A DNA stretch of 64,000 bases from Heptranchias perlo (lineage: Eukaryota). Positions 1 through 58,247 of this stretch are shown here, piece after piece; positions within the stretch are counted from its first letter, which is position 1; the number at the start of each line of letters is the position of its first letter. The DNA lies in contig NC_090330.1 of NCBI RefSeq assembly GCF_035084215.1, forward strand, positions 76,880,001 to 76,944,000. Direction: 5' to 3'. Under the pieces are notes generated by a model. The model had not been told where the DNA came from. It ran no database searches and saw nothing but the letters and a program-made list of their open reading frames with translations. The position numbers were made by a program, and so were the translations under genes.

Positions 1-491
1 ATTTAAGTCTAAGCACCCTTTTAACGGCGTGGTAAGTATCAATGACTGCCAAACAACCTCTCTGGCACTGAAAAGTAACATTTACAAATGTGGAGTCTCA
101 TTCCTTCAGATTTTAATTGTTGTTGGACATTTTAAAAGAAAAAATGTAAATTTTTAATTTTTTTTATTTTCTATTTCTGTCTCTTTTATCGCTCTCTCTT
201 TATTTCGCTTTCTGTACCTGATGTGACATTGAATTCATTATTCTAACTTACGCTTCCTGGTTCTGACACTTCGCTGCTCAGCACATGCTTTAATCTGATT
301 GGCTAAGGAGATAGACAGTTGCTTGCCCCGTTCACATAGGTCTCAGCTGCCCTGTAGAGGGTGCCGTTTTGGATTCAACGCCCCATGAGAGGAATTTACC
401 ATGAAAACAACCAAAAAAAACTTTATGGATAAATGCAGGTCTAACGAGTGGCAGGTGCCGTTTGTTCGCTGCTCAGAGGAAAGTCTGGGCC
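1..491. mobile_element. Right part of a non-autonomous DNA transposon (Harbinger/Tourist-like MITE family), truncated by the window edge
   Basis: Internal blocks (tgccaaacaacc, aatgtggag, ctttctgtacctg, ctgattgg) recur in the same order at 20597-21355 and 54407-55143; ends in a TIR-like ...ggaaagtctgggcc. Confidence 0.5.
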
Positions 492-1228
492 AGTAACAGT
501 TCCTCGTGAAAGAGTTATAAGGCTCTAACTTTATCAAGAGATTACAAGCCCTACACTATATGAGCTAAACATAAGCAACTAACTGCATTTATAAAGAAGT
601 CTTTTTATTTTTTGTTTCATTCGAGAATGTTAAAAAAAAAATGAATTTGCCATGCTGGGCACAGTCAGAAAGTGCACTGTTTTAGAAAAACTAGAACATT
701 GTACCATGTAACACAATGTACTATTCTGCTAAGTATTGGTGTGAGCTCACTTAAGGCTACAAAGTCTAATTAATAAGTACTGAGTGAGTAAATACAAATG
801 TCAGTTAAGAGACTGCAGATATTGTGGTTGATATTTTCTGTTGCTGCAGAGTTTGTACAATTCTTTTGTTTCTTGATACCTTTTTTTATCCAAGCATGAC
901 CCAGAATGTTGTGTTATGATAGTGTGATAGACCTTTGAAATGTAACAGATGGAAGTAAAGTTTTCTTGTGTATGTGTGTCTGTATATATTTATATTTTTT
1001 AAAGAATTATTTTGTTACATGCATGTAAAGTGGTAAGATTGAGGAGCTATGGTCTAATATATTCCACTGAGGAAAAAAGGGTGTAAAAGAAATGACAGCC
1101 ATCCGTGGCTAAGTAAAGAAATCAAGGATAGTATCCGACTAAAAACAAGGACATATAAGGTAGCCAAACTTAGTGGGAGGATAGAAGATTGGGAATTCTT
1201 CAAAAGACAGCAAAAAGTAACTAAAGGA

Positions 1229-3046
1229 TTGATTAAGAAAGGGAAGTTAGATTATGAAAAGAAATTAGCAAAAAATATAAAAACAGATAGCAAGAGTTTC
1301 TATAGTTATATAAAAAGAAAAAGGGTGGCTAAGGCAAACGTAGGTCCCTTAGAGGATGAGACCGGGAAATTAATGGTGGGAAACATGGAGATGGCAAAAA
1401 TGCTGAACAAATATTTTGTTTCAGTCTTTACAGTAGAGGACACTAAGAATATCCCAACACTGGACAAACAGGGGACTCTCGGGGGGGAGGAGCTAAATAC
1501 GATTAAAATCACTCAGGAGATGGTACTCAGTAAAATAATGGGACTCAAGGTGGATAAATCCCCTGGACCTGATGGCTTCCATCCTAGGGTCTTGAGGGAA
1601 GTGGCAGTAGGGATTGTGGATGCTTTGGTGATAGTTTTCCAAAATTCCCTGGACTCAGGAGAGGTCCCGGCAGATTGGAAAACTGCCAATGTAACACCGT
1701 TATTTAAAAAGGGTAGTAGGCAGAAGGCTGGAAATTATAGGCCAGTTAGCTTAACATCTGTGGTGGGTAAAATTTTGGAGTCTATTATTAAGGAGACAGT
1801 AACGGAACATTTAGATAAGCATAATTTAATAGGACAAAGTCAGCATGGCTTTATAAAGGGGAAGTCATGTCTGACAAATTTGCTTGAGTTCTTCGAGGAT
1901 ATAACGTATAGGGTGGATAAAGGGGAACCAGTGGACATCGTGTATTTAGACTTCCAGAAGGCATTCGACAAGGTGCCACATAAAAGATTATTACTTAAGA
2001 TAAAAAATCACGGGATTGGGGGTAATATTCTGGCATGGGTGGAGGATTGGTTATCGAACAGGAAGCAGAGAGTTGGGATAAATGGTTCATTTTCGGACTG
2101 GCAACCAGTAACCAGTGGTGTTCCACAGGGGTCGGTGCTGGGTCCCCAACTCTTTACAATCTATATTAACGATTTGGAGGAGGGGACCGAGTGCAACATA
2201 TCAAAATTTGCAGATGATACAAAGATGGGAGGGAAAGTAGAGAGTGAGGAGGACATAAAAAACCTGCAAGGGGATATAGACAGGCTGGGTGAGTGGGCGG
2301 AGATTTGGCAGATGCAATATAATATTGGAAAATGTGAGGTTATGCACTTTGGCAGGAAAAATCAGAGAGCAAGTTATTTTCTTAATGGCGAGAGACTGGA
2401 AAGTACTGCAGTACAAAGGGATCTGGGGGTCCTAGTGCAAGAAAATCAAAAAGTTGGTATGCAGGTGCAGCAGGTGATCAAGAAAGCCAACGGAATGTTG
2501 GCTTTTATTGCTAGGGGGATAGAATATAAAAACAAGGAGGTATTGCTGCAGTTATATAAGGTATTGGTGAGACCGCACCTGGAATACTGCATACAGTTTT
2601 GGTCTCCATACTTAAGAAAAGACATACTTGCTCTCGAGGCAGTACAAAGAAGGTTCACTCGGTTAATCCCGGGGATGAGGGGGCGGACATATGAGGAGAG
2701 GTTGAGTAGATTGGGACTCTACTCATTGGAGTTCAGAAGAATGAGAGGCGATCTTATTGAAACATATAAGATTGTGAAGGGTCTTGATCGGGTGGATGCA
2801 GTAAGGATGTTCCCAAAGATGGGTGAAACTAGAACTAGGGGGCATAATCTTAGAATAAGGGGCTGCTCTTTCAAAACTGAGATGAGGAGAAACTTCTTCA
2901 CTCAGAGGGTGGTAGGTCTGTGGAATTTGCTGCCCCAGGAAGCTGTGGAAGCTACATCATTAAATAAATTTAAAACAGAAATAGACAGTTTCCTAGAAGT
3001 AAAGGGAATTAGGGGTTATGGGGAGCGGGCAGGAAATTGGACATGA
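1229..3046 (+). CDS. CR1 ORF2 fragment (RT and C-terminal domain), no APE, stop-free
   Basis: 605-aa ORF with all non-LTR RT motifs; the frame is open back to the 5' truncation at about 1061. Confidence 0.9.
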   Translation: MIKKGKLDYEKKLAKNIKTDSKSFYSYIKRKRVAKANVGPLEDETGKLMVGNMEMAKMLNKYFVSVFTVEDTKNIPTLDKQGTLGGEELNTIKITQEMVLSKIMGLKVDKSPGPDGFHPRVLREVAVGIVDALVIVFQNSLDSGEVPADWKTANVTPLFKKGSRQKAGNYRPVSLTSVVGKILESIIKETVTEHLDKHNLIGQSQHGFIKGKSCLTNLLEFFEDITYRVDKGEPVDIVYLDFQKAFDKVPHKRLLLKIKNHGIGGNILAWVEDWLSNRKQRVGINGSFSDWQPVTSGVPQGSVLGPQLFTIYINDLEEGTECNISKFADDTKMGGKVESEEDIKNLQGDIDRLGEWAEIWQMQYNIGKCEVMHFGRKNQRASYFLNGERLESTAVQRDLGVLVQENQKVGMQVQQVIKKANGMLAFIARGIEYKNKEVLLQLYKVLVRPHLEYCIQFWSPYLRKDILALEAVQRRFTRLIPGMRGRTYEERLSRLGLYSLEFRRMRGDLIETYKIVKGLDRVDAVRMFPKMGETRTRGHNLRIRGCSFKTEMRRNFFTQRVVGLWNLLPQEAVEATSLNKFKTEIDSFLEVKGIRGYGERAGNWT

Positions 3047-3047
3047 A

Positions 3048-4647
3048 TCATAGAATCATAGAAGTTACAACATGGAAACAGGCCCTTCGGCCCAACATGT
3101 CCATGTCGCCCAGTTTATACCACTAAGCTAGTCCCAATTGCCTGCACTTGGCCCATATCCCTCGATACCCATCTTCCCCATGTAACTGTCCAAATGCTTT
3201 TTAAAAGACAAAATTGTACCCGCCTCGACTACTGCCTCTGGCAGCTCGTTCCAGACACTCACCACCCTTTGAGTGAAAAAATTGCCCCTCTGGATCCTTT
3301 TGTATCTCTCCCCTCTCACCTTAAATCTGTGCCCCCTCGTTATAGACTCCCCTACCTTTGGGAAAAGATTTTGACTATCGACCTTATCTATGCCCCTCAT
3401 TATTTTATAGACTTCTATAAGATCACCCCTTAACCTCTTACTCTCCAGGGAAAAAAGTCCCAGTCTGTCTAACCTCTCCCTGTAAGTCAAACCATCAAGT
3501 CCCGGTAGCATCCTAGTAAATCTTTTCTGCACTCTTTCTAGTTTAATAATATCCTTTCTATAATAGGGTGACCAGAACTGTACACAGTACTCCAAGTGTG
3601 GCCTCACCAATGCCCTGTACAACTTCAACAAGACATCCCAACTCCTGCATTCAATGTTCTGACCAATGAAACCAAGCATGCTGAATGCCTTCTTCACCAC
3701 CCTATCCACCTGTGACTCCACTTTCAAGGAGCTATGAACCTGTACTCCTAGATCTCTTTGTTCTATAACTCTCCCCAACGCCCTACCATTAACGGAGTAG
3801 GTCCTGGCCCGATTCGATCTACCAAAATGCATCACCTCACATTTATCTAAATTAAACTCCATCTGCCATTCATCGGCCCACTGGCCCAATTTATCAAGAT
3901 CCCGTTGCAATCCTAGATAACCTTCTTCACTGTCCACAATGCCACCAATCTTGGTGTCATCTGCAAACTTACTAACCATGCCTCCTAAATTCTCATCCAA
4001 ATCATTAATATAAATAACAAATAACAGCGGACCCAGCACCGATCCCTGAGGCACACCGCTGGACACAGGCATCCAGTTTGAAAAACAACCCTCGACAACC
4101 ACCCTCTGTCTTCTGTCGTCAAGCCAATTTTGTATCCAATTGGCTACCTCACCTTGGATCCCATGAGATTTAACCTTATGTAACAACCTACCATGCGGTA
4201 CCTTGTCAAATGCTTTGCTGAAGTCCATGTAGACCACGTCTACTGCACAGCCCTCATCTATCTTCTTGGTTACCCCTTCAAAAAACTCAATCAAATTCGT
4301 GAGACATGATTTTCCTCTCACAAAACCATGCTGACTGTTCCTAATTAGTCCCTGCCTCTCCAAATGCCTGTAGATCCTGTCCCTCAGAATACCCTCTAAC
4401 AACTTACCCACTACAGATGTCAGGCTCACTGGTCTGTAGTTCCCAGGCTTTTCCCTGCCGCCCTTCTTAAACAAAGGCACAACATTTGCTACCCTCCAAT
4501 CTTCAGGCACCTCACCTGTTGCGGTGGATGATTCAAATATCTCTGCTAGGGCACCCGCAATTTCCTCCCTAACCTCCCTTAACGTCCTGGGATACATTTC
4601 ATCATGTCTCGGAGATTTATCTACCTTGATGCGCGTTAAGACTTCCA
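3048..4647 (-). mobile_element. Young 5'-truncated CR1 LINE (different subfamily) nested in the 3' UTR of the previous element
   Basis: Stop-free 489-aa RT ORF 3128-4597; (gaatcata)n tail at about 3045-3063. Confidence 0.95.
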
Positions 4648-5710: not shown

Positions 5711-5856
5711 CCAAAAGCTGAATTGAATTCTGGAAATCAGTGAAAGCCTTCAGTTTTGAAGTTCTGTTTAGGTGGATTCAGCCTTGTGTGCTGGGTGCAT
5801 TTCTCAGGCAATCACCAGTTTGATGTTAGTCAGCTGGTCACCAAAACAAAGTCATA

Positions 5857-6058
5857 GGAGGTGATTTTACAAGTCCGCTTTCAGCAGGGAGCCTAAAGCC
5901 AGCACCACTTATTGGAAATTTGAGCATGCACTGCCCACAATTTTCTGACCATTAAAATGAATGGAAAATTGTGGGCAATGTGCGTCCACATTTCCCACAT
6001 GCACTTGTCAGCCAGACAGGTTATCCGCGAACAGTGCGGACCCGTAAAAACAGCCCTC
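5857..6058. repeat. About 200-bp imperfect palindrome, MITE-like
   Basis: Outer arms ttttacaagtccgc / gcggacccgtaaaa; inner arms gcactgcccacaattttc / gaaaattgtgggcaatgtgc. Confidence 0.6.
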
Positions 6059-7228
6059 TGATATATTCTCCCTCTATCTTAAATTTTAAAAATCTGGTTT
6101 ATTAAAATTGTCACAATTGGTCTGGGTTACTTGGCCAATCAATTAGGAAAACTCTCCTTAATTACTCTGCATGTACTATGCCACTGATATTTTCTCACCA
6201 AGCATATTGGTACCTACATGCTGTAGGAAAACTCATGCTTGAACTAGTATGCCTCAGTGTTGTGCAGTGTGCTAATGTAATTGTTTGAACCCTACATTGC
6301 TACCATCACCACCCCTCCCCTCTTTCCCCCCCCCCCAACCCCCCCACAAACAACGGACAAGTAATCATCGATCTTTTCACCTTAGTGTTCCATAGCTCAA
6401 AATGCACTCTGCTCTTCATACAACCCCAAGTTTGGAAGGACAGAATCTGTAATAGCACTGCTCAGCATTTTTCACAGTTCAGGTTGAAGTGATCATTCTA
6501 CATGTCATAAAAATCACAATGCAGAAGGCCATTCAGCCCATCATGTCTCTTTTTGTAAATACAGCTGTTCAGCTAGATCTAACTGCTCTAATCCAATTTC
6601 TCCTTTTTAACAATTCCTTTGTTAACAATCCAAACTTATCCTGCTCCATTTTAAATGATGGCTATAGTCTCTGACTCAACAGCCACTTGTGGTAAAGCAA
6701 TAACTGTTTGTGTGAAAAATACCTACTGAAATCTTTGCAGTACCAATGCACCAAGTCAGCCATCAAAAAGAAGTTCAACTAACCATATCCTAGCCCTTTA
6801 ATACCTCACATTCCTTCCACATCTCTACTTTTGACACAAACTCCCTCCATTGTCCATTCTGTTCTTCAGTTATGACTAACATGTCTGGGAAAGGGAGAAA
6901 ATTGGACAAAGATTGAGTCGAACTGATCTTCACTCTCATTTCCATTCCATCATGCCACGATCACGCTCATTTATGGGTTGTAATGGAGCAAGTGTGAAAT
7001 TTGACTCATTTTTGTTATGTGATTTGATTTTTAAAAATATTTCCAATTAATTTTGTGGCTAGCTGGAGTGATCATTCAGCTACATAATATAAAAAACTAA
7101 AATATATCTGAAGCTTTCGCTAACAATTACAGTTTGGAACCATTTGTACTAGTGTTTGGGGCGTTTGGTTCTAGATATGGAAAAGTGTTCCACTGGATTT
7201 TATTGGAAGCTCTTCCAGTGCTGATTGG

Positions 7229-7457
7229 CATGATGTGGAGATGCCGGTGATGGACTGGGGTTGACAATTGTAAACAATTTTACAACACCAAGTTATAGTC
7301 CAACAATTTTATTTTAAAATCCACAAGCTTTCGGAGGCTTCCTCCTTCCTCAGGTGAAGACACACATTCACCTGAGGAAGGAGGAAGCCTCCGAAAGCTT
7401 GTGGATTTTAAAATAAAATTGTTGGACTATAACTTGGTGTTGTAAAATTGTTTACAA
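7229..7457. mobile_element. Non-coding Penelope-like (PLE) derivative: 38-nt tail plus perfect inverted pLTR hairpin
   Basis: Arms 7268-7358 and 7367-7457 are exact reverse complements (91 bp, 8-nt loop). TSD GTGCTGATTGG at 7218-7228 and 7458-7468. Homologous to the termini of the GIY-YIG element at 50829-52086. Confidence 0.9.
7367..7405 (+). ncRNA. Minimal type I hammerhead ribozyme motif (identical copy on the - strand at 7320-7358)
   Basis: UUCAC-CUGAGGA-A-GGAGG(AAG)CCUCC-GAAA-GC-UU-GUGGA: core boxes, 5-bp stem II, 5-bp stem I and palindromic AAGCUU stem III, as in PLE-associated hammerheads. Confidence 0.7.
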
Positions 7458-7494
7458 GTGCTGATTGGGTAACTGATGTTTCACTAAGCCACAC

Positions 7495-19579: not shown

Positions 19580-20380
19580 AAACATAGGAACAGGAGTAGG
19601 CCAGTCAGCCCCTTGAGCCTGTTCCATCATTCAATTAGATCATGGCTGATCTCATAGCATCATATGTAAGGAGTCTTACAACACCAGGTTACAACACCTT
19701 GCATTTGTCCACCCCAGTCCATCACCGGCATCTCCACATCATAGTCATGGTAGGTGCGGCACAGGAGACGGCCATTTGGCCCATCGTGCCTGTGCCAGCG
19801 CTTTGAAAGAGCTATCCAATTAGTCCCATTCCCCTACTCTTTCCTCATAGCCCTGTAATTTTTTCCCCTTCAAGTATTTATCCAATTCCCTTATGACAGT
19901 TACTATCGAAAAGGGTGGTGCATTCCAGATCATTACAACTCGCTGTATAAAAAAATATTTCCTCATGTCACCTCTGGTTCTTTTGCTGTGATCACCTTAA
20001 ATCTGCGTCCTCTGGTTACCGACCCCTCTGCCACTGGAAACAATTTCTCCCTATTTACTTTGTCAAAACCATTCATGATTTTGAACACCTATTAAATTTC
20101 CCCTTAACCTTCTCTGTTCTAAGGAGAACAACCCCAACTTCTCTAGTCTCTCCACATAACTGACATCCCTGGCACCATTCTAGTAAATCTCTTCTGCACC
20201 CTCTCTAAGGTCTGTATCTTAACTCAATCTACCTGCCTTGGTTCCGTAATTCTTGCCTAATAATCTTCTATACTCAAGGGAATACAAGCCTAGTCTATGC
20301 AACCTGTTTTCATAATTTAATCCTTTTAACCTCAGTACCATTCTGGTGAATCTGTGCTGCACCCCCCTACAAGGCCAACT
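19580..20380 (-). mobile_element. Nested CR1 3' fragments (outer 19580-19652 plus 20213-20380; inner about 19743-20212)
   Basis: Two CR1 tails (aacataggaacaggagtaggcc; ggcacaggagacggccat); outer UTR resumes at tctgtatcttaactc. Confidence 0.7.
19664..19742 (+). mobile_element. Tiny PLE terminus remnant (tail plus short inverted segment)
   Basis: catttgtccaccccagtccatcaccggcatctccacatcat is the reverse complement of 50829-50869; preceded by an inverted atgtaaggagtcttacaacaccaggtta. Confidence 0.85.
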
Positions 20381-36560: not shown

Positions 36561-39500
36561 GATTCCTGGGACATTGGGACCGGTTCTGGGGAAGGTGGGA
36601 CCTGTACAAGCGTGACGGGTTACACCCGAGCAGGACTGGGACCAATGTCCTCGCGGGGGTGTTTGCTAGTGCTGTTGGGGAAAGTTTAAACTAGAGTGGC
36701 AGGGGGATGGGAACCTGAGCGGGGAGTCAGAAGAGAATAAAGCTGAGAGCAGCAAGAGAGGGGAAGACCCAGGGGAAATCTACAATACAAATAGTACAAA
36801 CAGTTGTTCAATAACAAGTGAAAGGGAAAAGCGTAGAACAGCAGAAAGAAAGTGTACTTTAGGCACGACAGATAAAATAAAAACTAGAAGGCGCAAGGCG
36901 ATTAACCCAGCATCAAAGCTGTGGCAGGGGGTTGGGAACCTGAGCAGGGAGACAGAGGAAAGCGTGTCAGGAAGGGACAGAAGGTATGGAGTAAAAGGTA
37001 AAGTGTTAAAAAAGGAAGAAGCAGGAACTAAGTGTCACAAAACATATTTGAAAGTTCTTTATCTGAATGCACGTAGCATTCGTAACAAAATGGACGAGTT
37101 AACGGCACAAATAACTATGTATGGGTATGATCTTGTGGCCATTACAGAAACATGGCTGCAGGGTGACAATGACTGGGAATTAAATATGCCAGGGTATTTA
37201 ACAATCAGGAAGGACAGGCAGGAAGGAAGGGGAGGTGGGGTGGTTATGTTAATAAAGGAAGGAATTACTGTAATACAGAGAAATGATATTGGGACAAAAG
37301 ATCAGGACAATGAAACAGTTTGGGTAGAGATAAGGAATAATAAGGGGAAAAAAAACATTAGTGGGCGTAGTATATAGGCCTCCTATAGTTGCAACTCTGC
37401 TGGAAGAAGTATTAATCAGGAAATAGTCGGGGCATGTAATAAGGGAACAGCTATAATTATGGGGGATTTTAACTATCATATTAACTGGACAAATCAAATT
37501 GGGCAGGGCAGCCTTGAGGAAGAGTTTATTGAGTGTATTAGGGATGGATTTCTTGAGCAGTATGTAACTGATCCTACAAGGGGGCAGGCAACCTTGGACC
37601 TGGTCCTGTGCAATGAGCCAGGATTAATTAATAATGTCCTAGTTAAGGATCCCCTTGGAATGAGTGACCATAACATGGTTACATTCCATATCCAATTAGA
37701 GGGTGAGAAGGTTGGTTCTCAAACAAGCGTAGGCGTACTGAGCTTGAATAAAGGAGACTCTGATGGTATGAGAGCGGAATTGATTAAAGTGGACTGGGAA
37801 AATAGATTAAAGGGTAAGATGGTACATGAGCAGTGGTGTTCATTTAAGGAGTTATTTTACAACTTTCAAAAAATATATATTCCACTGAGGGGAAAAAAGG
37901 GTGTAAAAGAAATGACAGCCATCTGTGGCTAAGTAAAGAAATTAAGGATAGTATCCGACTAAAATCAAGGACATATAAGGGAGCCAAACTTAGTGGGAGG
38001 ATAGAAGATTGGGAAGTGTTCAAAAGACAGCAAAAAGTAACTAAAGGATTGATTAAGAAAGGGAAGATAGATTATGAAAATAAATTAGCAAAAAATATAA
38101 AAACAGATAGCAAGAGTTTCTACAGTTATATAAAAAGAAAAAGGGTGGCTAAGGCAAACGTAGGTCCCTTAGAGGATGAGACCGGGAAATTAATGGTGGG
38201 AAACATGGAGATGGCAAAAATGCTGAACAAATATTTTGTTTCAGTCTTTACGGTAGAGGACACTAAGAATATCCCAACACTGGACAAACAGGGGGATCTA
38301 GGGGGGGGAGGAGCTAAATACGATTAAAATCACTAAGGAATTGGTACTCAGTAAAAATAATGGGACTCAAGGCGGATAACTCCCCTGGACCTGATGGCTT
38401 ACATCTGAGGGTCTTGAGGGAAGTGGCAGTAGGGATTGTGGATGCTTTGGTAATAATTTTCCAAAATACTCTGGACTCGGCAAAGGTCCCGGCAGATTGG
38501 AAAACTGCTAATGTAACACCCTTATTTAAAAAGGGTAGCAGGCAGAAGGCTGGAAATTATAGACCAGTTAGCCTAACATCTGTGGTGGGTAAAATTTTAG
38601 AGTTTATTAAGGAGACAGTAACGGAACATTTGGATAAACATAATTTAATAGGACAAAGTCAGCATGGCTTTATGAAGGGGAAGTCATGTCTGACAAATTT
38701 GCTTGAGTTCTTTGAGGACATAACGTACAGGGTGGATAAAGGGGAACCAGTGGACGTAGTGTATTTAGACTTCCAGAAGGCATTCGACAAGGTGCCACAT
38801 AAAAGATTGTTGCTCAAGATAAAGAATCACTGGATTGGGGGTAATATTCTGGCATGGGTGGAGGATTGGTTATCTAACAGGAAGCAGAGAATTGGGATAA
38901 ATGGTTCATTCTCGAACCGGCAACCAGTAGCCAGTGGTGTTCCACAGGGGTTGGTGCTGGGTCCCCAACTCTTTACAATCTATATTAACGATTTGGAGGA
39001 CGGGACCGAGTGTAGCGTATCAAAGTTTGCAGATGATACAAAGATGGGAGGGAAAGTAGAGAGTGAGGAGGACATAAAAAACCTACAAGGGGATATAGAC
39101 TGGCTGGGTGAGTGGGCGGAGATTTGGCAGATGCAATACAATATTGGAAAATGTGAGGTTATGCACTTTGGCAGGAAAAATCAGAGAGCAAGTTATTATC
39201 TTAATGGCGAGAAACTGGAAAGTACTGCAGTACAAAGGGATCTGGGGGTCCTAGTGCAAGAAAATCAAAAAGTTAGTATGCAGGTGCAGCAGGTGATCAA
39301 GAAGGCCAACGGAATGTTGGCTTTTATTGCTCGGGGGATAGAATATAAAAACAGGGAGGTATTGCAGCAATTATATAAGGTATTGGTGAGACCACACCTG
39401 GAATACTGCATACAGTTTTGGTGTCCATACTTAAGAAAAGACATACTTGCTCTCGAGGCAGTACAAAGAAGGTTCACTCGGTTAATCCCGGGATGAGGTG

Positions 39501-39968
39501 GTGGACATATGAGGAGAGGTTGAGTAGATTGGGACTCCTCTCATTCTTCTGAACTCCAATGAGTAGCGATCTTATTGAAACATATAAGATTGTGAAGGGG
39601 CTTTATTGGGTGGATGCGGTAAGGATGTTCCCAAGGATGGGTGAAACTAGAACTGGGGGGCATAATCTTAGAATAAGGGGCTGCTCTTTCAAAACTGAGA
39701 TGAGGAGAAACTTCTTCACTCAGAGGGTAGTAGGTCTATGGAATTTGCTGCCCCAGGAAGCTGTGGAAGCTACATCATTAAATAAATTTAAAACAGAAAT
39801 AGACAGTTTCCTGGAAGTAAAGGGAATTAGGGGTTACGGGGAGCGGGCAGGAAGTTGGACATGAATTTAGATTTGAGGTTAAGATCAGATTAGCCATGAT
39901 CTTATTGAATGGCGGAGCAGGCTCGAAGGGCCGATTGGCCTACTCCTGCTCCTATTTCTTATGTTCTT
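36561..39968 (+). mobile_element. Long CR1 LINE: ORF1 C-terminus (SGNH esterase-like) plus complete but disrupted ORF2 (APE-RT)
   Basis: HWDRFWGRWDLYKRDGLH..GTNVLA ending TTA AAC TAG at 36694; APE (NARSI, AITETW, GDFN, LDLV, SDH); RT nearly identical to 1061-3046. Confidence 0.95.
36685..36694 (+). promoter_or_regulatory. Candidate -1 ribosomal frameshift site U_UUA_AAC immediately before the ORF1 stop
   Basis: ORF1 codons AGT TTA AAC TAG; the -1 frame (TTT at 36685) is open through the APE ORF annotated from 36964. Confidence 0.6.
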
Positions 39969-40875: not shown

Positions 40876-40941
40876 GGGGGAAGAGGAATAAGTGAATTTT
40901 TGCTATCAAATGTTATAATACTCATTTATTTTTCTTAATAG

Positions 40942-41283
40942 GTGCCTTGGCTGGACCAGTTGTTGTTGATCGAAAGGTATCTGCAATTTTGGGCAAAAAT
41001 GCCACCTTAAAGTGTTTGGTTATGGTGAAAGAAACTGTAACTCAGATCTCCTGGGAGAAGCAAGAACATGGGACCACAGAAACTGTTGCAGTGTTTAATC
41101 CTATTTATGGAATCTCAATCCAAGGGAACTATCCAGGAAGAGCTGTATTCACAAACCCATCTTTAAAAGATGCAACAATTCTTATTACCAAAGTTGGGTT
41201 TTCAGATTCTGGAAACTACATCTGCAAGGTGGCCACTTTCCCATTGGGAAATTACCAAGAAACAAGCACTGTGACTGTGATCG
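40942..41283 (+). CDS. nectin3: Nectin-3 internal exon encoding the Ig V-type domain (342 nt, phase 1-1)
   Basis: tttttcttaatag| acceptor and |gtatgt donor; GALAGPVVV..GKNATLKC..TQISWEK..DATI...FSDSGNYICKVATFPLGN matches vertebrate NECTIN3 (PVRL3) as I recall it. Confidence 0.93.
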
Positions 41284-41583
41284 GTATGTATCCTATTAAA
41301 ACCCTGTACTAGTAGAAATTAGAAGATTTATTTTGTAATTTGTCCTGTTTGTCCCTGAGTCTTCGATTATCTGCCTACCTATCTATTAACACCAATTTGC
41401 CACTAAAGACACTCAAAAAAAAAAGTCATTGCAACAAAAACTAATTAGTAATACAAATGCTGGGTAGTAAATGAGATTTAAGCCACCCGATTGGTACTTT
41501 CTGGTACAGATTTTATACTTCTAGATATGCTAACATATTGCAGAGCTGTTTAAAAGAAAGAACAAATAAAGTTGCATTTATAT

Positions 41584-50828: not shown

Positions 50829-51114
50829 ATGATGTGGAGATGCCGGTGATGGACTGGGGTGGACAAATGTAAGGAGTCTTACAACACCAGTCCAACAGTT
50901 TTATTTGAAATCACAAGCTTTCGGAGGCTTCCTCCTTCGTCAAGTGAGTGAGGGATTCCATAAAGGTACAGCATATATAGTCAGAGAACAATGCCTGGTG
51001 ATTAAATAATCTTTCCAACTGCCCGTTATCAATGCAATCAAAGGAGTTGAATGGTGTTCAGACAGAGAAACATTACATACAAGACTACTGAATACACAAA
51101 TGGTCAGAACACAA

Positions 51115-51149
<35 letters not shown>

Positions 51150-52086
51150 TCCGAAAGGCAGAGAAAGAGAGAGAATGACCAGTTGTATTAAAAACAGGTA
51201 ACTTTTTTTCGCTGGTGGGGTTACATGTAGCGTGGCATGAACCCAAGATCCCGGTTGAGGCCGTCCTCATGGGTGCGGAACTTGGCTATCAATTTCTGCT
51301 CGACGATTTTGCGTTGTCGTGTGTCTCGAAGGCCGCCTTGGAGAACGCTTACCCGAAGATCGGAGGCTGAATGTCCTTGACTGCTGAAGTGTTCCCCGAC
51401 TGGGAGGGAACCCTCCTGTCTGGCGATTGTTGCGCGGTGTCCGTTCATCCGTTGTCGCAGTGTCTGCATGGTCTCGCCGATGTACCATGCTCCGGGGCAT
51501 CCTTTCCTGCAACGTATGAGGTAGACAACGTTGGCCGTGTCGCAGGAGTATGAACCATGTATCTGGTGGGTGGTGTCCTCTCGTGTGATGGTGGTATCTG
51601 TGTCGATGATCTGGCATGTCTTGCAGAGGTTGCTGTGGCAGGGTTGTGTGGTGTCGTGGACACTGTTCTCCTGAAAGCTGGGTAATTTGCTGCGAACGAT
51701 GGTCTGTTTGAGGTTAGGTGGCTGTTTGAAGGCGAGTAGTGGAGGCGTAGGGATGGCCTTAGCGAGGTGTTCGTCGTCATCGATGACCTGTTGAAGGCTG
51801 CGAAGAACATGGTGTAGTTTCTCCGCTCCTGGGAAGTACTGGACGACGAAGGGTACTCTGTTGGTTGTGTCCCGTGTTTGTCTTCTGAGGAGGTCTATGC
51901 GATTTTTCGCTGTGGCAGTTGGAAAGATTATCTATAATCACCAGGCATTGTTCTCAGACTACATATGCTGTACCTTTATGGAATCCCTCACTCACATGAC
52001 GAAGGAGGAAGCCTCCGAAAGCTTGTGATTTCAAATAAAACTGTTGGACTATAACCTGGTGTTGTAAGACTCCTTACATTTGTCCA
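50829..52086 (-). mobile_element. Penelope-like element (Neptune-type), 5'-truncated with inverted pLTR
   Basis: Inverted arms 50860-51023 and 51914-52086; TSD TTAATAAAG (up to 13 bp with microhomology); internal (GA)n; GIY-YIG ORF. Confidence 0.92.
51221..51913 (-). CDS. PLE ORF C-terminal part: RT thumb/linker, Cys-rich motif and GIY-YIG endonuclease (open frame, 5'-truncated)
   Basis: Manual translation ...PFVVQYFPG...PPNLKQTIVRSKL...PCHSNLCKTC...SCDTANVVYLIRCRKGCPGAWYIGET-MQTLRQRMNGHR...GLNRD. Confidence 0.85.
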   Translation of the reverse strand, partial: TAKNRIDLLRRQTRDTTNRVPFVVQYFPGAEKLHHVLRSLQQVIDDDEHLAKAIPTPPLLAFKQPPNLKQTIVRSKLPSFQENSVHDTTQPCHSNLCKTCQIIDTDTTITREDTTHQIHGSYSCDTANVVYLIRCRKGCPGAWYIGETMQTLRQRMNGHRATIARQEGSLPVGEHFSSQGHSASDLRVSVLQGGLRDTRQRKIVEQKLIAKFRTHEDGLNRDLGFMPRYM

Positions 52087-56455: not shown

Positions 56456-57460
56456 TGTACAGTTCAAAATGTTCATTTAGACTCTGGTCTAATTTACAAA
56501 TGCAGCATGTCTAATTGTTCTGCTGAATATATATTCACATTTCAAATGGACAAAATAAGAACATTTTCGCATGGCCAGCATAATGCTTTACATTGTTGCA
56601 TATCATGGCATTGACTTGCCTCAGTCCCTCAAATATATTGGAGTTACCAGCAAAATGTTCTTTCAGCAGTATCTTTCAGACCAGTTCAAGGAAGAAAAAT
56701 TATTTTGCTTATATTGGACACCTCACAAATTGAGTGCTTTCTCCAAGGAGCTGCACAGTAACGGCATGAGGATAATCCAGTCTTGGGCATGGTGCTAGAG
56801 TGCTCGGTGCTATGAAGTTCTATCTCACCCAGTGTTGATGAATTTTGAGAATCTAGTAAGCCAAAAAATTATACAGGTTTTTCACCTTCAGTGCCCATGT
56901 TTCTTCATGTGTGAGCTTAAAAGTCAGTATTGGGTTATTCATCCATAAGAGGCACCACAACTGAAACGCATTCTGTCCTCGCTCAGCATTCAAATTTGTA
57001 CTTTCCAGGTGTAACTGGATGATAAGCAGAAGTCCTGACTGCCTGATTTTTTTCCTCTATATAGCTCCACACCTCTTGTGTAATGCCACGTACAGCTTTA
57101 CCATTACACTGAATTCATGTCAGATATCCACATAAAAAATACTACCTGAACATAATGTAAAATGATTGAACCTAACATGTAATTGTGTTAGTTTTCATGC
57201 CTTTTGAATCTTTTGAAATAGTATAATTGAATTTAGATTTATTATGAGTATGAATGGAAATATTGTAAATCATTAGGCAGCACCAACTATTCATATAAGT
57301 GATGGTATCACAAATACACACTTAACGGGTGAAACTCCCCACCAGTAGTGCACATTTGTAGAATCAGCTGTGTCTAAGTAAATGTTCAACAGTGCTACAA
57401 TATTTTGTGACTACTCTCAGTTGCACTATTCTACAGACTCATTTTTTATTACTTTTATAG

Positions 57461-57760
57461 TTGAACCCATAATAACTGTGGGAGGTGGCCCTGAACCACT
57501 TGTAGATGGTGCCAATGAGACCGTTGCAGCAGTATGCACAGCAGCCAATGGAAAACCTGAAGCAGTTGTTTTCTGGGAAACCGATCTCATTGGAGAACAA
57601 CAGCAGACCAAGATTTCTGCTCCAAATGAAACTGTGACTGTTGTTAATCAGTTCAAGATCATTCCGTCCCGATTTGTGAGGAAGAGACCAATCACCTGCA
57701 TAGTGGTACATCCACCACTGAATACCAGTACTCGAGTCCCATATATCTTGGATGTACAGT
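57461..57760 (+). CDS. nectin3: Nectin-3 internal exon encoding the first Ig C-type domain (300 nt, phase 1-1)
   Basis: ttattacttttatag| acceptor and |gtaagt donor; VEP..GP..LVDGANETVAAVCTAANGKP...PNETVTV...PSRF..ITCIVVHP..ILDVQ matches NECTIN3; splices in frame to the upstream exon (G|TT = Val). Confidence 0.93.
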
Positions 57761-58247
57761 GTAAGTACCTGATGTGTAAATCTGAATATACTGTATAATT
57801 GAAGTTATAATTAGCACAGATCTAATATCAGTAAGTTTGATACTTAAAAATAACATTGTCCTACTGGCGTTATTTTAGTTTACTCATGCTTTCTCAAATT
57901 GGAAGTGTATCCTAAAAGTGCAGTGAAATGTATTTTAAAATTTAGTCATCAAACGTGCTTTGTACAACCATTACATTAAAATAAAATTGATAGAATTCTG
58001 GATGTTTAAAGATATTATAGGTTTGACTGACATTTTGGAGCTTGATTTTTAAATGGCAGCTTATATAAAGATGATGTAGAATGCCAATGCTGAGCAGGAG
58101 ACAGAAAGTTGAGGGGGAAGCATGCTCGGAGTCGTGTTTCTAGGTATTTGAAAGCAGAGAAGGAAGTAGCAAGCAGAAGAACCTAGGAATGGAGCCCAAG
58201 AAGGCATTGGCATAGTGGAGGAAAGAGCAGCCACCAATGGTGGAGTT

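What the first reader, a model, noticed from the sequence alone, without database searches (positions are those of the whole stretch)
7218..7468. Perfect 91-bp hairpin mini-retroelement carrying a hammerhead ribozyme on both strands
Seen: a 229-bp insertion bounded by an 11-bp TSD, with no ORF. It consists of a 38-nt tail and two exactly complementary 91-bp arms. Each arm contains CUGAGGA / stem II GGAGG-AAG-CCUCC / GAAA / palindromic AAGCUU / stem I UUCAC:GUGGA. Established: PLE pLTRs carry minimal type I hammerheads with a palindromic stem III thought to act as dimers, and PLE copies often show an inverted 5' pLTR plus a short tail. Inference: this is either an extreme 5'-truncation product or a member of a non-autonomous, retrozyme-like family. 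The full hairpin and the ribozyme fold are mutually exclusive, so it could switch between self-cleavage and a dsRNA (Dicer/ADAR) substrate inside a host intron. Zero mismatches between the arms suggest very recent insertion or arm homogenisation.
Basis: partly seen in the sequence, partly recalled or inferred. Interest (0 to 1): 0.72.

Follow-up and report, generated by a model that had tools for sequence, protein, structure and literature searches.

The report
Dead-end Penelope retrotransposon leader hairpin
This perfect DNA hairpin is one of thousands of short footprints of an abundant protein-coding Penelope-like retrotransposon, each with its own middle joint; it likely formed when both ends of the cut chromosome primed copying of the same RNA and both copies ran off near its predicted start, which offers a testable answer to how these elements make their inverted repeats.

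Summary
The anatomy is real: 91-bp perfect arms, a 39-nt tail, an 11-12-bp target-site duplication and a minimal hammerhead motif in each arm. It is not a separate non-autonomous family. Its 130-nt arm-plus-tail is identical to the end of an ORF-bearing, Neptune-type Penelope-like element (PLE) with at least 30,016 tail junctions in this genome. The hairpin centre is unique genome-wide, and 46 of 50 sampled centres differ, so hairpins are made anew at each insertion. The family points to a mechanism. 47 of 50 hairpins carry exactly one tail. The arms are not nested. 80 of 84 arm pairs share one subfamily haplotype. Arm 5' ends pile up 27-33 nt after a conserved TATA box in four of five subfamily groups, with no peak at the ribozyme cut. 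Best reading (0.7): both target strands prime at the two known internal start sites on one uncut mRNA leader; both cDNAs run off near the start site and are end-joined head to head. The start site is predicted, not mapped. A ribozyme/dsRNA switch is unlikely, because the antisense arm is transcribed first on either strand. The element is ordinary; the mechanistic clue is useful.

The parts
7217..7228 (+). Left copy of target-site duplication (AGTGCTGATTGG)
   Evidence: Family TSD is 12-13 nt in 61 of 95 scored insertions, none found in 11.
7229..7267 (-). 39-nt PLE 'tail' = end of the 5' leader; its last three bases (7231-7229) are the parent ORF's ATG. Inferred RT start site 1.
   Evidence: In L061 the tail runs straight into MATIDTT..., a 902-aa ORF. 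Tail = stretch between two RT start sites in PMC11167929.
7268..7358 (-). Tail-bearing arm (pLTR, sense on minus strand). 5' end at the start of hammerhead stem I, 36 nt after the parent's TATA box. Inferred cDNA 1.
7320..7358 (-). Minimal type I hammerhead motif; predicted cut between 7325 and 7324
   Evidence: Sequence; PMC4209133; activity untested
7359..7366 (+). Junction: 4 nt of filler (GACA) plus 4 nt (CACA) of the element's own leader belonging to the right arm; unique in the genome
7367..7457 (+). Tail-less inverted arm (pLTR, sense on plus strand), ending at TTTACAA = inferred RT start site 2. Inferred cDNA 2.
7367..7405 (+). Minimal type I hammerhead motif (stem I 7367-7371/7401-7405, stem II 7380-7384/7388-7392); predicted cut between 7400 and 7401
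   Evidence: 93.6% of 140 cells paired, core columns invariant in 14 copies
7457..7468 (+). Right copy of target-site duplication (first A shared with the arm end)
50829..52084 (-). Longer insertion of a sister lineage with the same plan: tail arm about 1.09 kb with GIY-YIG end, 171-nt inverted arm, 13-nt TSD TCCATTAATAAAG

Best explanation
The hairpin is a short insertion of an autonomous Penelope-like retrotransposon, likely made when both strands of a staggered chromosomal cut primed reverse transcription on the leader of one uncut mRNA and both cDNAs ran off near its predicted start site. Shown: parent ORF, copy number, unique centres, one tail per insertion, non-nested arms, matched haplotypes, ends piled at TATA+27..33. 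Inferred: the GIY-YIG nuclease makes a 12-13-nt staggered cut; one 3' end primes at the tail/ATG (site 1), the other about 38 nt upstream (site 2); the two cDNAs reach the 5' end of the RNA, lose 0-20 nt, and are joined head to head through microhomology or short templated fillers. The product lacks the TATA box and the ORF, so it is predicted to be a dead end. Long and tandem copies would come from read-through, tandem or circular RNA.
For: Parent: 902-aa ORF with RVT_1 E=3.3e-10, DKG, CX4CxxC linker and GIY-YIG-type end. The window's 130 nt match L071 exactly. Counts: 30,016 tail junctions; 2,471 hairpin centres with spacer <=30. Made anew: 1 genome-wide match to this centre; 46 distinct of 50. 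Two fixed start sites: 47 one-tail, 3 no-tail, 0 two-tail of 50 centre-selected hairpins (p=4e-11 against 0.5); inverted-arm 3' ends at -2..+4 of the tail start in 47 of 50 scored. Non-nested: of 96 two-arm insertions the tail-less arm reaches >=10 nt further 5' in 27, the tail arm in 10. In 26 long one-tail pairs the tail-less arm is longer in 13 and the tail arm in 9 (L104 corrected), e.g. 2,915 vs 85 nt. One source: 80 of 84 pairs share a haplotype, 0.14 expected. Arms stop together: 93 of 95 inverted arms of short tail arms also end after the TATA box; in 28 of 28 long pairs both arms are long. Run-off: per-nt stop rate of tail arms 0.055 at TATA+27..33 vs 0.0006 upstream of TATA (n=171); the edge follows the TATA box in groups with TATA-to-core distances 37, 40, 44 and 46; 23 of 75 scorable arms end exactly at the Inr-like A and 3 go beyond (this set's 30-nt spacer limit caps total extension). 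In vitro, an anole PLE cuts and extends both strands, starts at two internal sites and uses mainly uncut RNA (PMC11167929).
Against: The start site is predicted from TATA/Inr spacing; no raw RNA reads were available. One subfamily group (distance 39) does not fit: 3 of 30 ends in +27..33, 7 in +20..26. 31 arm ends fall at TATA+1..26, upstream of the predicted start. A second peak lies near the start of stem I, where the window's own left arm ends. 14 of 267 arms end 2-7 nt after the ribozyme cut (9 and 4 in the flanking 10-nt bins), so a minor cut-RNA class is not excluded. 32 of 128 short tail arms have no detected inverted arm. L088 has tails on both arms. Haplotype match shows one donor, not one molecule. 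The in vitro data come from another clade (Poseidon). The samples are the first-listed matches on contigs C1-C3 and need exact motifs, so they favour young copies.
Confidence: 0.7

Rival explanations
1. Fold-back or self-priming: one strand is made first, folds back and is copied to give the inverted arm (self-priming on an antisense template was proposed in PMC3846280); later deletions at the palindrome centre make the arms unequal.
For: Explains matched haplotypes and coupled arm lengths. Some centres are perfect palindromes (3 of 50 identical), and several fillers look like snap-back copies of the arm.
Against: Predicts one arm nested in the other. The tail is on one arm only, while the other arm reaches further 5' by >=4 nt in 39 of 96, and by kilobases in L084 and L066. 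Needs a separate reason for the sharp stop at site 2.
Confidence: 0.12
2. Twin priming is right, but the stop is set by RNA structure or processing near the hammerhead, not by the capped 5' end.
For: Second peak at the start of stem I. The leader can pair with the strand after the cut site in a 60-nt fold. One subfamily group misfits.
Against: Modal ends move with the TATA box (-7, -10, -16, -17/-15 from the core for distances 37, 40, 44, 46; -4/-5 is as common in two of these groups). The short-leader subfamily also stops at its own Inr-like A (listing).
Confidence: 0.12
3. A non-autonomous, retrozyme-like hairpin family that is copied as a unit.
For: Stereotyped size and ends among the best BLAST matches (chosen for likeness). 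A few centres recur (L002=L006; three groups).
Against: Unique centre; 46 of 50 distinct. Of the three recurrent groups, one is the palindromic join of two full leaders, one is a 5-nt centre and one pair shares flanks. No head-to-tail repeats. Continuum of arm lengths up to 3.1 kb. Lacks TATA and ORF start.
Confidence: 0.03
4. A working switch between self-cleavage and a Dicer/ADAR substrate in a host intron.
For: Perfect 91-bp stem. Inverted Penelope copies gave matching siRNAs in transgenic flies (PMC3681739 passages). Possibly within a nectin-3-like gene.
Against: The antisense arm is made first on both strands; -172/-160 vs about -11 kcal/mol. A single minimal HHR from Schistosoma was inactive and the anole one needed protein. 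Young copy, one of thousands; intron location not shown.
Confidence: 0.03

Closest known systems
EN+ Penelope-like elements, Neptune type; typical insertion with inverted pLTR, pLTR, tail and TSD (PMC8557442, PMC3846280)
   Same: RT plus C-terminal GIY-YIG ORF with CX2-5CxxC linker; hammerhead in pLTR; 30-40-nt tail at one end; head-to-head inverted copy; TATA and Inr-like motifs in the pLTR (noted for rotifer Pen2a).
   Different: Here about half of the sampled insertions (93 of 171) are leader-only hairpins whose arms both end after the TATA box. I found no description of this run-off class or of twin priming for PLEs in my searches.
Anolis Poseidon PAc in vitro system (PMC11167929)
   Same: Both target strands cut and extended; two internal RT start sites spaced by the tail; uncut RNA as main template.
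   Different: Poseidon clade; start sites lie 111-118 nt inside the ORF, here at and before the ATG. The parts I read do not link the two sites to the inverted arm.
Opposite-strand pairs of minimal hammerheads, 100-700 bp apart (Cervera and de la Pena, PMC4209133)
   Same: Two min-HHRs on opposite strands, attributed to truncated PLEs.
   Different: Mentioned in passing for Schistosoma, with no junction or end analysis in the parts read.
Non-LTR retrozymes (PMC7229834; bioRxiv 10.64898/2026.07.22.740005)
   Same: Type I hammerhead, no ORF, related to PLE pLTRs.
   Different: Retrozymes are head-to-tail repeats cut into circular RNAs; this is a head-to-head pair with a private centre.
LINE-1 twin priming (recalled, not read here)
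   Same: Two primers from both target strands give a 5' inversion with microhomology joins.
   Different: In L1 the second primer lands at variable internal sites and the segments barely overlap; here both sites are fixed and the same stretch is copied twice.

Membership tests
EN+ Penelope-like element (parent family) | Single ORF with RT and C-terminal GIY-YIG endonuclease | tested here: met
   L061 902-aa ORF, RVT_1 E=3.3e-10. The GIY-YIG end was read by eye (SYSC..VVYLIRC..YIGET); Pfam gave no GIY-YIG hit.
EN+ Penelope-like element (parent family) | pLTR, tandem or partial-tandem copies, 30-40-nt tail, inverted 5' copy | tested here: met
   Tandems L093, L107; full pLTR-ORF-pLTR L104; tail 39 nt; inverted arms.
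EN+ Penelope-like element (parent family) | Minimal type I hammerhead in the pLTR | tested here: met
   Core invariant in 14 copies; stems 93.6% paired; covariation weak (3 pairs with two-sided change, 49 of 500 shuffles as high). No Rfam hit.
EN+ Penelope-like element (parent family) | Self-cleavage activity | not testable with these tools
   Needs an in vitro assay.
Neptune/Nematis type | CX2-5CxxC motif before GIY-YIG | tested here: met
   44 of 45 ORF reads have CX4CxxC (overlapping loci not removed); definition.
Neptune clade | RT phylogeny | not tested
   No reference PLE proteins were at hand; Neptune rather than Nematis is inferred from the vertebrate host.
Penelope/Poseidon clade | Absence of the CX2-5CxxC linker | tested here: not met
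   Linker present. My early notes said Poseidon; corrected.
Non-LTR retrozyme | Head-to-tail repeats, each with a hammerhead | tested here: not met
   Head-to-head pair; no direct repeat of the unit.
Non-LTR retrozyme | Circular or linear monomer RNA in cells | not testable with these tools
   Only contigs available.
Non-autonomous family copied as a unit (MITE- or SINE-like) | Copies share internal structure, including the centre | tested here: not met

The most novel reading that the evidence does not exclude
PLEs integrate as a dimer whose two RT sites start at two fixed points on one capped, uncut mRNA, the trailing one displacing the leading cDNA. Most events therefore end as promoter-less leader hairpins (order 10^4 in this genome) that feed dsRNA against the element's own 5' end, and hammerhead cutting and circularisation is the route that removes the 5' end and allows long and tandem copies.
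Probability: 0.3. Interest if true: 0.75.

Novelty: new member of a known kind. Interest (0 to 1): 0.5.

Why it matters
How PLEs form tandem and inverted repeats is called an open task in PMC8557442, and the one explicit model I found is self-priming on antisense RNA (PMC3846280). This young family, with tens of thousands of copies, records both primer sites and both stop points at base resolution. It favours twin priming with run-off and gives direct predictions for the existing in vitro system. It also warns that such hairpins can be mis-annotated as microRNAs or MITEs. The single locus has no sign of a function of its own.

Tried and rejected
Rfam scan: no hammerhead model matched. RNA evidence: no RNA holder listed; runs X1-X4 are contigs of guessed type and show no start or end. 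The left flank 5800-7245 was laid to look for an empty allele or transcription: no cover at the insertion site, uninformative. Host gene: 150 of 256 non-repeat frames were scanned; nectin-3-like V and C2 exons were found; an Ephrin_rec_like hit at 22.6 kb (E=5e-5) had no PDB match and is treated as chance; no first exon or CpG island was found upstream. PDB holds no relative of the ORF. Earlier findings: three look-ups, nothing. My first impression that arms stop at stem I came from copies chosen for likeness and weakened in samples not chosen by 5' end. The Poseidon label was dropped. Arm homogenisation is not needed (4 of 50 pairs skipped). Cut RNA as main template: 0 of 239 arms that reach the cut site end within 1 nt of it. 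Rows dropped: 9 of 180 tails as duplicates, one tail too near a locus edge, 9 of 37 long pairs with under 80% coverage, 25 of 100 arms not scorable, 27 of 50 hairpins without TSD call.

Full report
OBSERVATION. The structure is as described: perfect arms 7268-7358 and 7367-7457, loop GACACACA, 229-nt insert, and a 12-nt direct repeat that shares one base with the arm. The tail is 39 nt. Each arm carries a minimal hammerhead of the kind described for PLE pLTRs (PMC4209133). Rfam found no hammerhead. In 14 natural copies the core is invariant and 93.6% of stem cells pair, but covariation is weak.

PARENT ELEMENT. The window lies in a 3.25-Gb genome with a nectin-3-like gene; that the repeat looks like shark PLEs is recall only. 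The tail junction occurs 30,016 times exactly, the hammerhead core 17,950 times. Long copies carry an ORF: L061 has 902 codons with an RT match, and the tail's last three bases are its ATG. The linker CX4CxxC (44 of 45 reads) makes it Neptune/Nematis-type by the definition in PMC8557442; no tree was built. The window's 130-nt arm plus tail is identical to the end of L071, whose other arm holds a 325-aa ORF fragment. Tandem units of about 3.09 kb exist (L093, L107).

NOT A FAMILY OF ITS OWN. The 30 best matches share ends and have 11-16-nt TSDs in most cases, but nearly all have different centres. There are 2,471 hairpin centres with a spacer up to 30 nt; of the first 50, 46 are distinct. The window's centre occurs once. 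Arm lengths run from under 100 nt to 3 kb. The hairpin is therefore built at insertion.

WHERE THE ARMS START. Of 50 centre-selected hairpins, 47 have one tail, 3 none and 0 two. Tail matches end at -3..+4 of the ATG in 78 of 82 scored; inverted arms end at -2..+4 of the tail start in 47 of 50 scored. These match the two internal RT start sites that bound the tail in the anole PLE, which cuts and extends both target strands (PMC11167929). TSDs are mostly 12-13 nt.

WHERE THE ARMS STOP. I sampled insertions by their tail, independent of the 5' end: 80 regions from the first-listed matches and 90 of the first 100 of 438 matches, giving 171 unique insertions from 180 tails. All subfamilies have a TATA-like box upstream of the hammerhead at distances of 37-47 nt, several with an Inr-like TCATTT about 27-29 nt after it. 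Tail-arm ends: 39 at TATA+27..33, 41 at +34..49, 17 at +1..26, 2 at -70..0 and 43 long; the stop rate is 0.055 per nt at +27..33 against 0.0006 upstream. The edge tracks the TATA box in four groups and fails in one. In centre-selected hairpins 23 of 75 scorable arms end exactly at the Inr-like A and 3 pass it, and some centres are two full leaders joined by a shared AT. No arm of 239 ends within 1 nt of the ribozyme cut; a small bump of 14 arms 2-7 nt after it may be a minor cut-RNA class or an AT-rich joining hot spot, since in 4 of those 11 insertions the partner arm crosses the cut. In the window, the left arm ends at TATA+36 and the right at +32, against +27 for the Inr-like A of this subfamily.

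ONE SOURCE, TWO INDEPENDENT COPIES. Arm pairs share a subfamily haplotype in 80 of 84 cases (0.14 expected; the 4 exceptions differ at one base). They stop together: 93 of 95 for short insertions and 28 of 28 for long pairs (the apparent exception L104 is long/long; 17 of the 28 came from a search needing the leader on both arms). Yet they are not nested: the tail is on one arm, while the other reaches further 5' by 10 nt or more in 27 of 96 (10 the other way; scored only where the tail arm is short) and is longer in 13 of 26 long pairs. Simple fold-back predicts nesting. Junctions show overlap of 1-7 nt in 46 of 95, blunt joins in 7, and fillers in the rest, often copied from the arm.

MECHANISM. 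Inferred: staggered cut, priming from both 3' ends at sites 1 and 2 on the leader of one uncut mRNA, run-off near the 5' end, trimming, head-to-head end joining. Copying the same stretch twice from one RNA would need strand displacement (that PLE RTs lack RNase H is recalled); two RNAs from one donor would also fit. The product lacks the TATA box and the ORF start, which the anole protein needs on its template, so it is predicted to be inert. 126 of 171 tail arms end after the TATA box and 93 of 171 insertions are short two-arm hairpins.

SWITCH IDEA. On either strand the antisense arm is transcribed before the ribozyme arm. The hairpin folds at -172/-160 kcal/mol, the ribozyme-like fold at about -11. 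dsRNA processing is plausible if the site is transcribed (fly precedent), but transcription and intron position were not shown.

LITERATURE SEEN. PMC11167929: parts 1-2 of 4 (abstract, main text, start of methods). PMC4209133: parts 1-2 of 4. PMC8557442, PMC3846280, PMC7229834, PMC2377424, PMC8969392, PMC12910113, PMC3681739: passages around search terms. bioRxiv 2026.07.22.740005: part 1 of 5 plus passages. No supplements were read; Fig. S2 of PMC11167929 may bear on anole copy ends. Ten searches: 'Penelope + twin priming + inverted' gave 2 unrelated papers (listing only), and none of the 11 listed for 'strong stop' held that phrase. Older subscription papers on Penelope were not searchable and may anticipate the model.

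VERDICT. Observation confirmed. The locus is an ordinary, young, dead-end product of a known class of element. The family-wide pattern gives a specific, testable account of PLE inverted repeats. Interest 0.5.

Noticed in passing
window 40896-41309 and 57382-57795 (+): Ig V-set and C2-set exons of a nectin-3-like gene (PDB 4fom E=8e-41 for the V exon); first exon not found in the window.
   Followed up: partly
window 50829-52084: Second PLE insertion of a sister lineage, inverted arms and 13-nt TSD, inserted into another repeat.
   Followed up: partly
window 19665-19742: Tiny 78-nt PLE piece: 27-nt inverted arm plus tail, no hammerhead.
   Followed up: partly
L061 (G000:C1:22730800-22737200): Full-length copy with an open 902-codon ORF and a 2.5-kb inverted arm at 99.4% identity; L104 has arms of 3.2 and 3.1 kb. 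Kilobase palindromes persist in this genome.
   Followed up: partly
L127 3727-3922; L135 259-484; L098; L083: Hairpins with 40-225 nt of foreign sequence between the arms, perhaps captured at joining or inserted later.
   Followed up: no
L088: Insertion with tails on both arms; exception to the one-tail rule.
   Followed up: no
L071 near 2042-2101: The predicted leader AUUUCCACA can pair with the strand after the hammerhead cut and compete with stem I in a 60-nt fold; possible off-state in 5' copies.
   Followed up: partly
window 1057-3048 and 37875-39866, and about 61% of the window: Dense repeats that match each other or fetched loci, including a 2-kb pair at 94.7% identity; LINE-like by appearance, not classified.
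   Followed up: no
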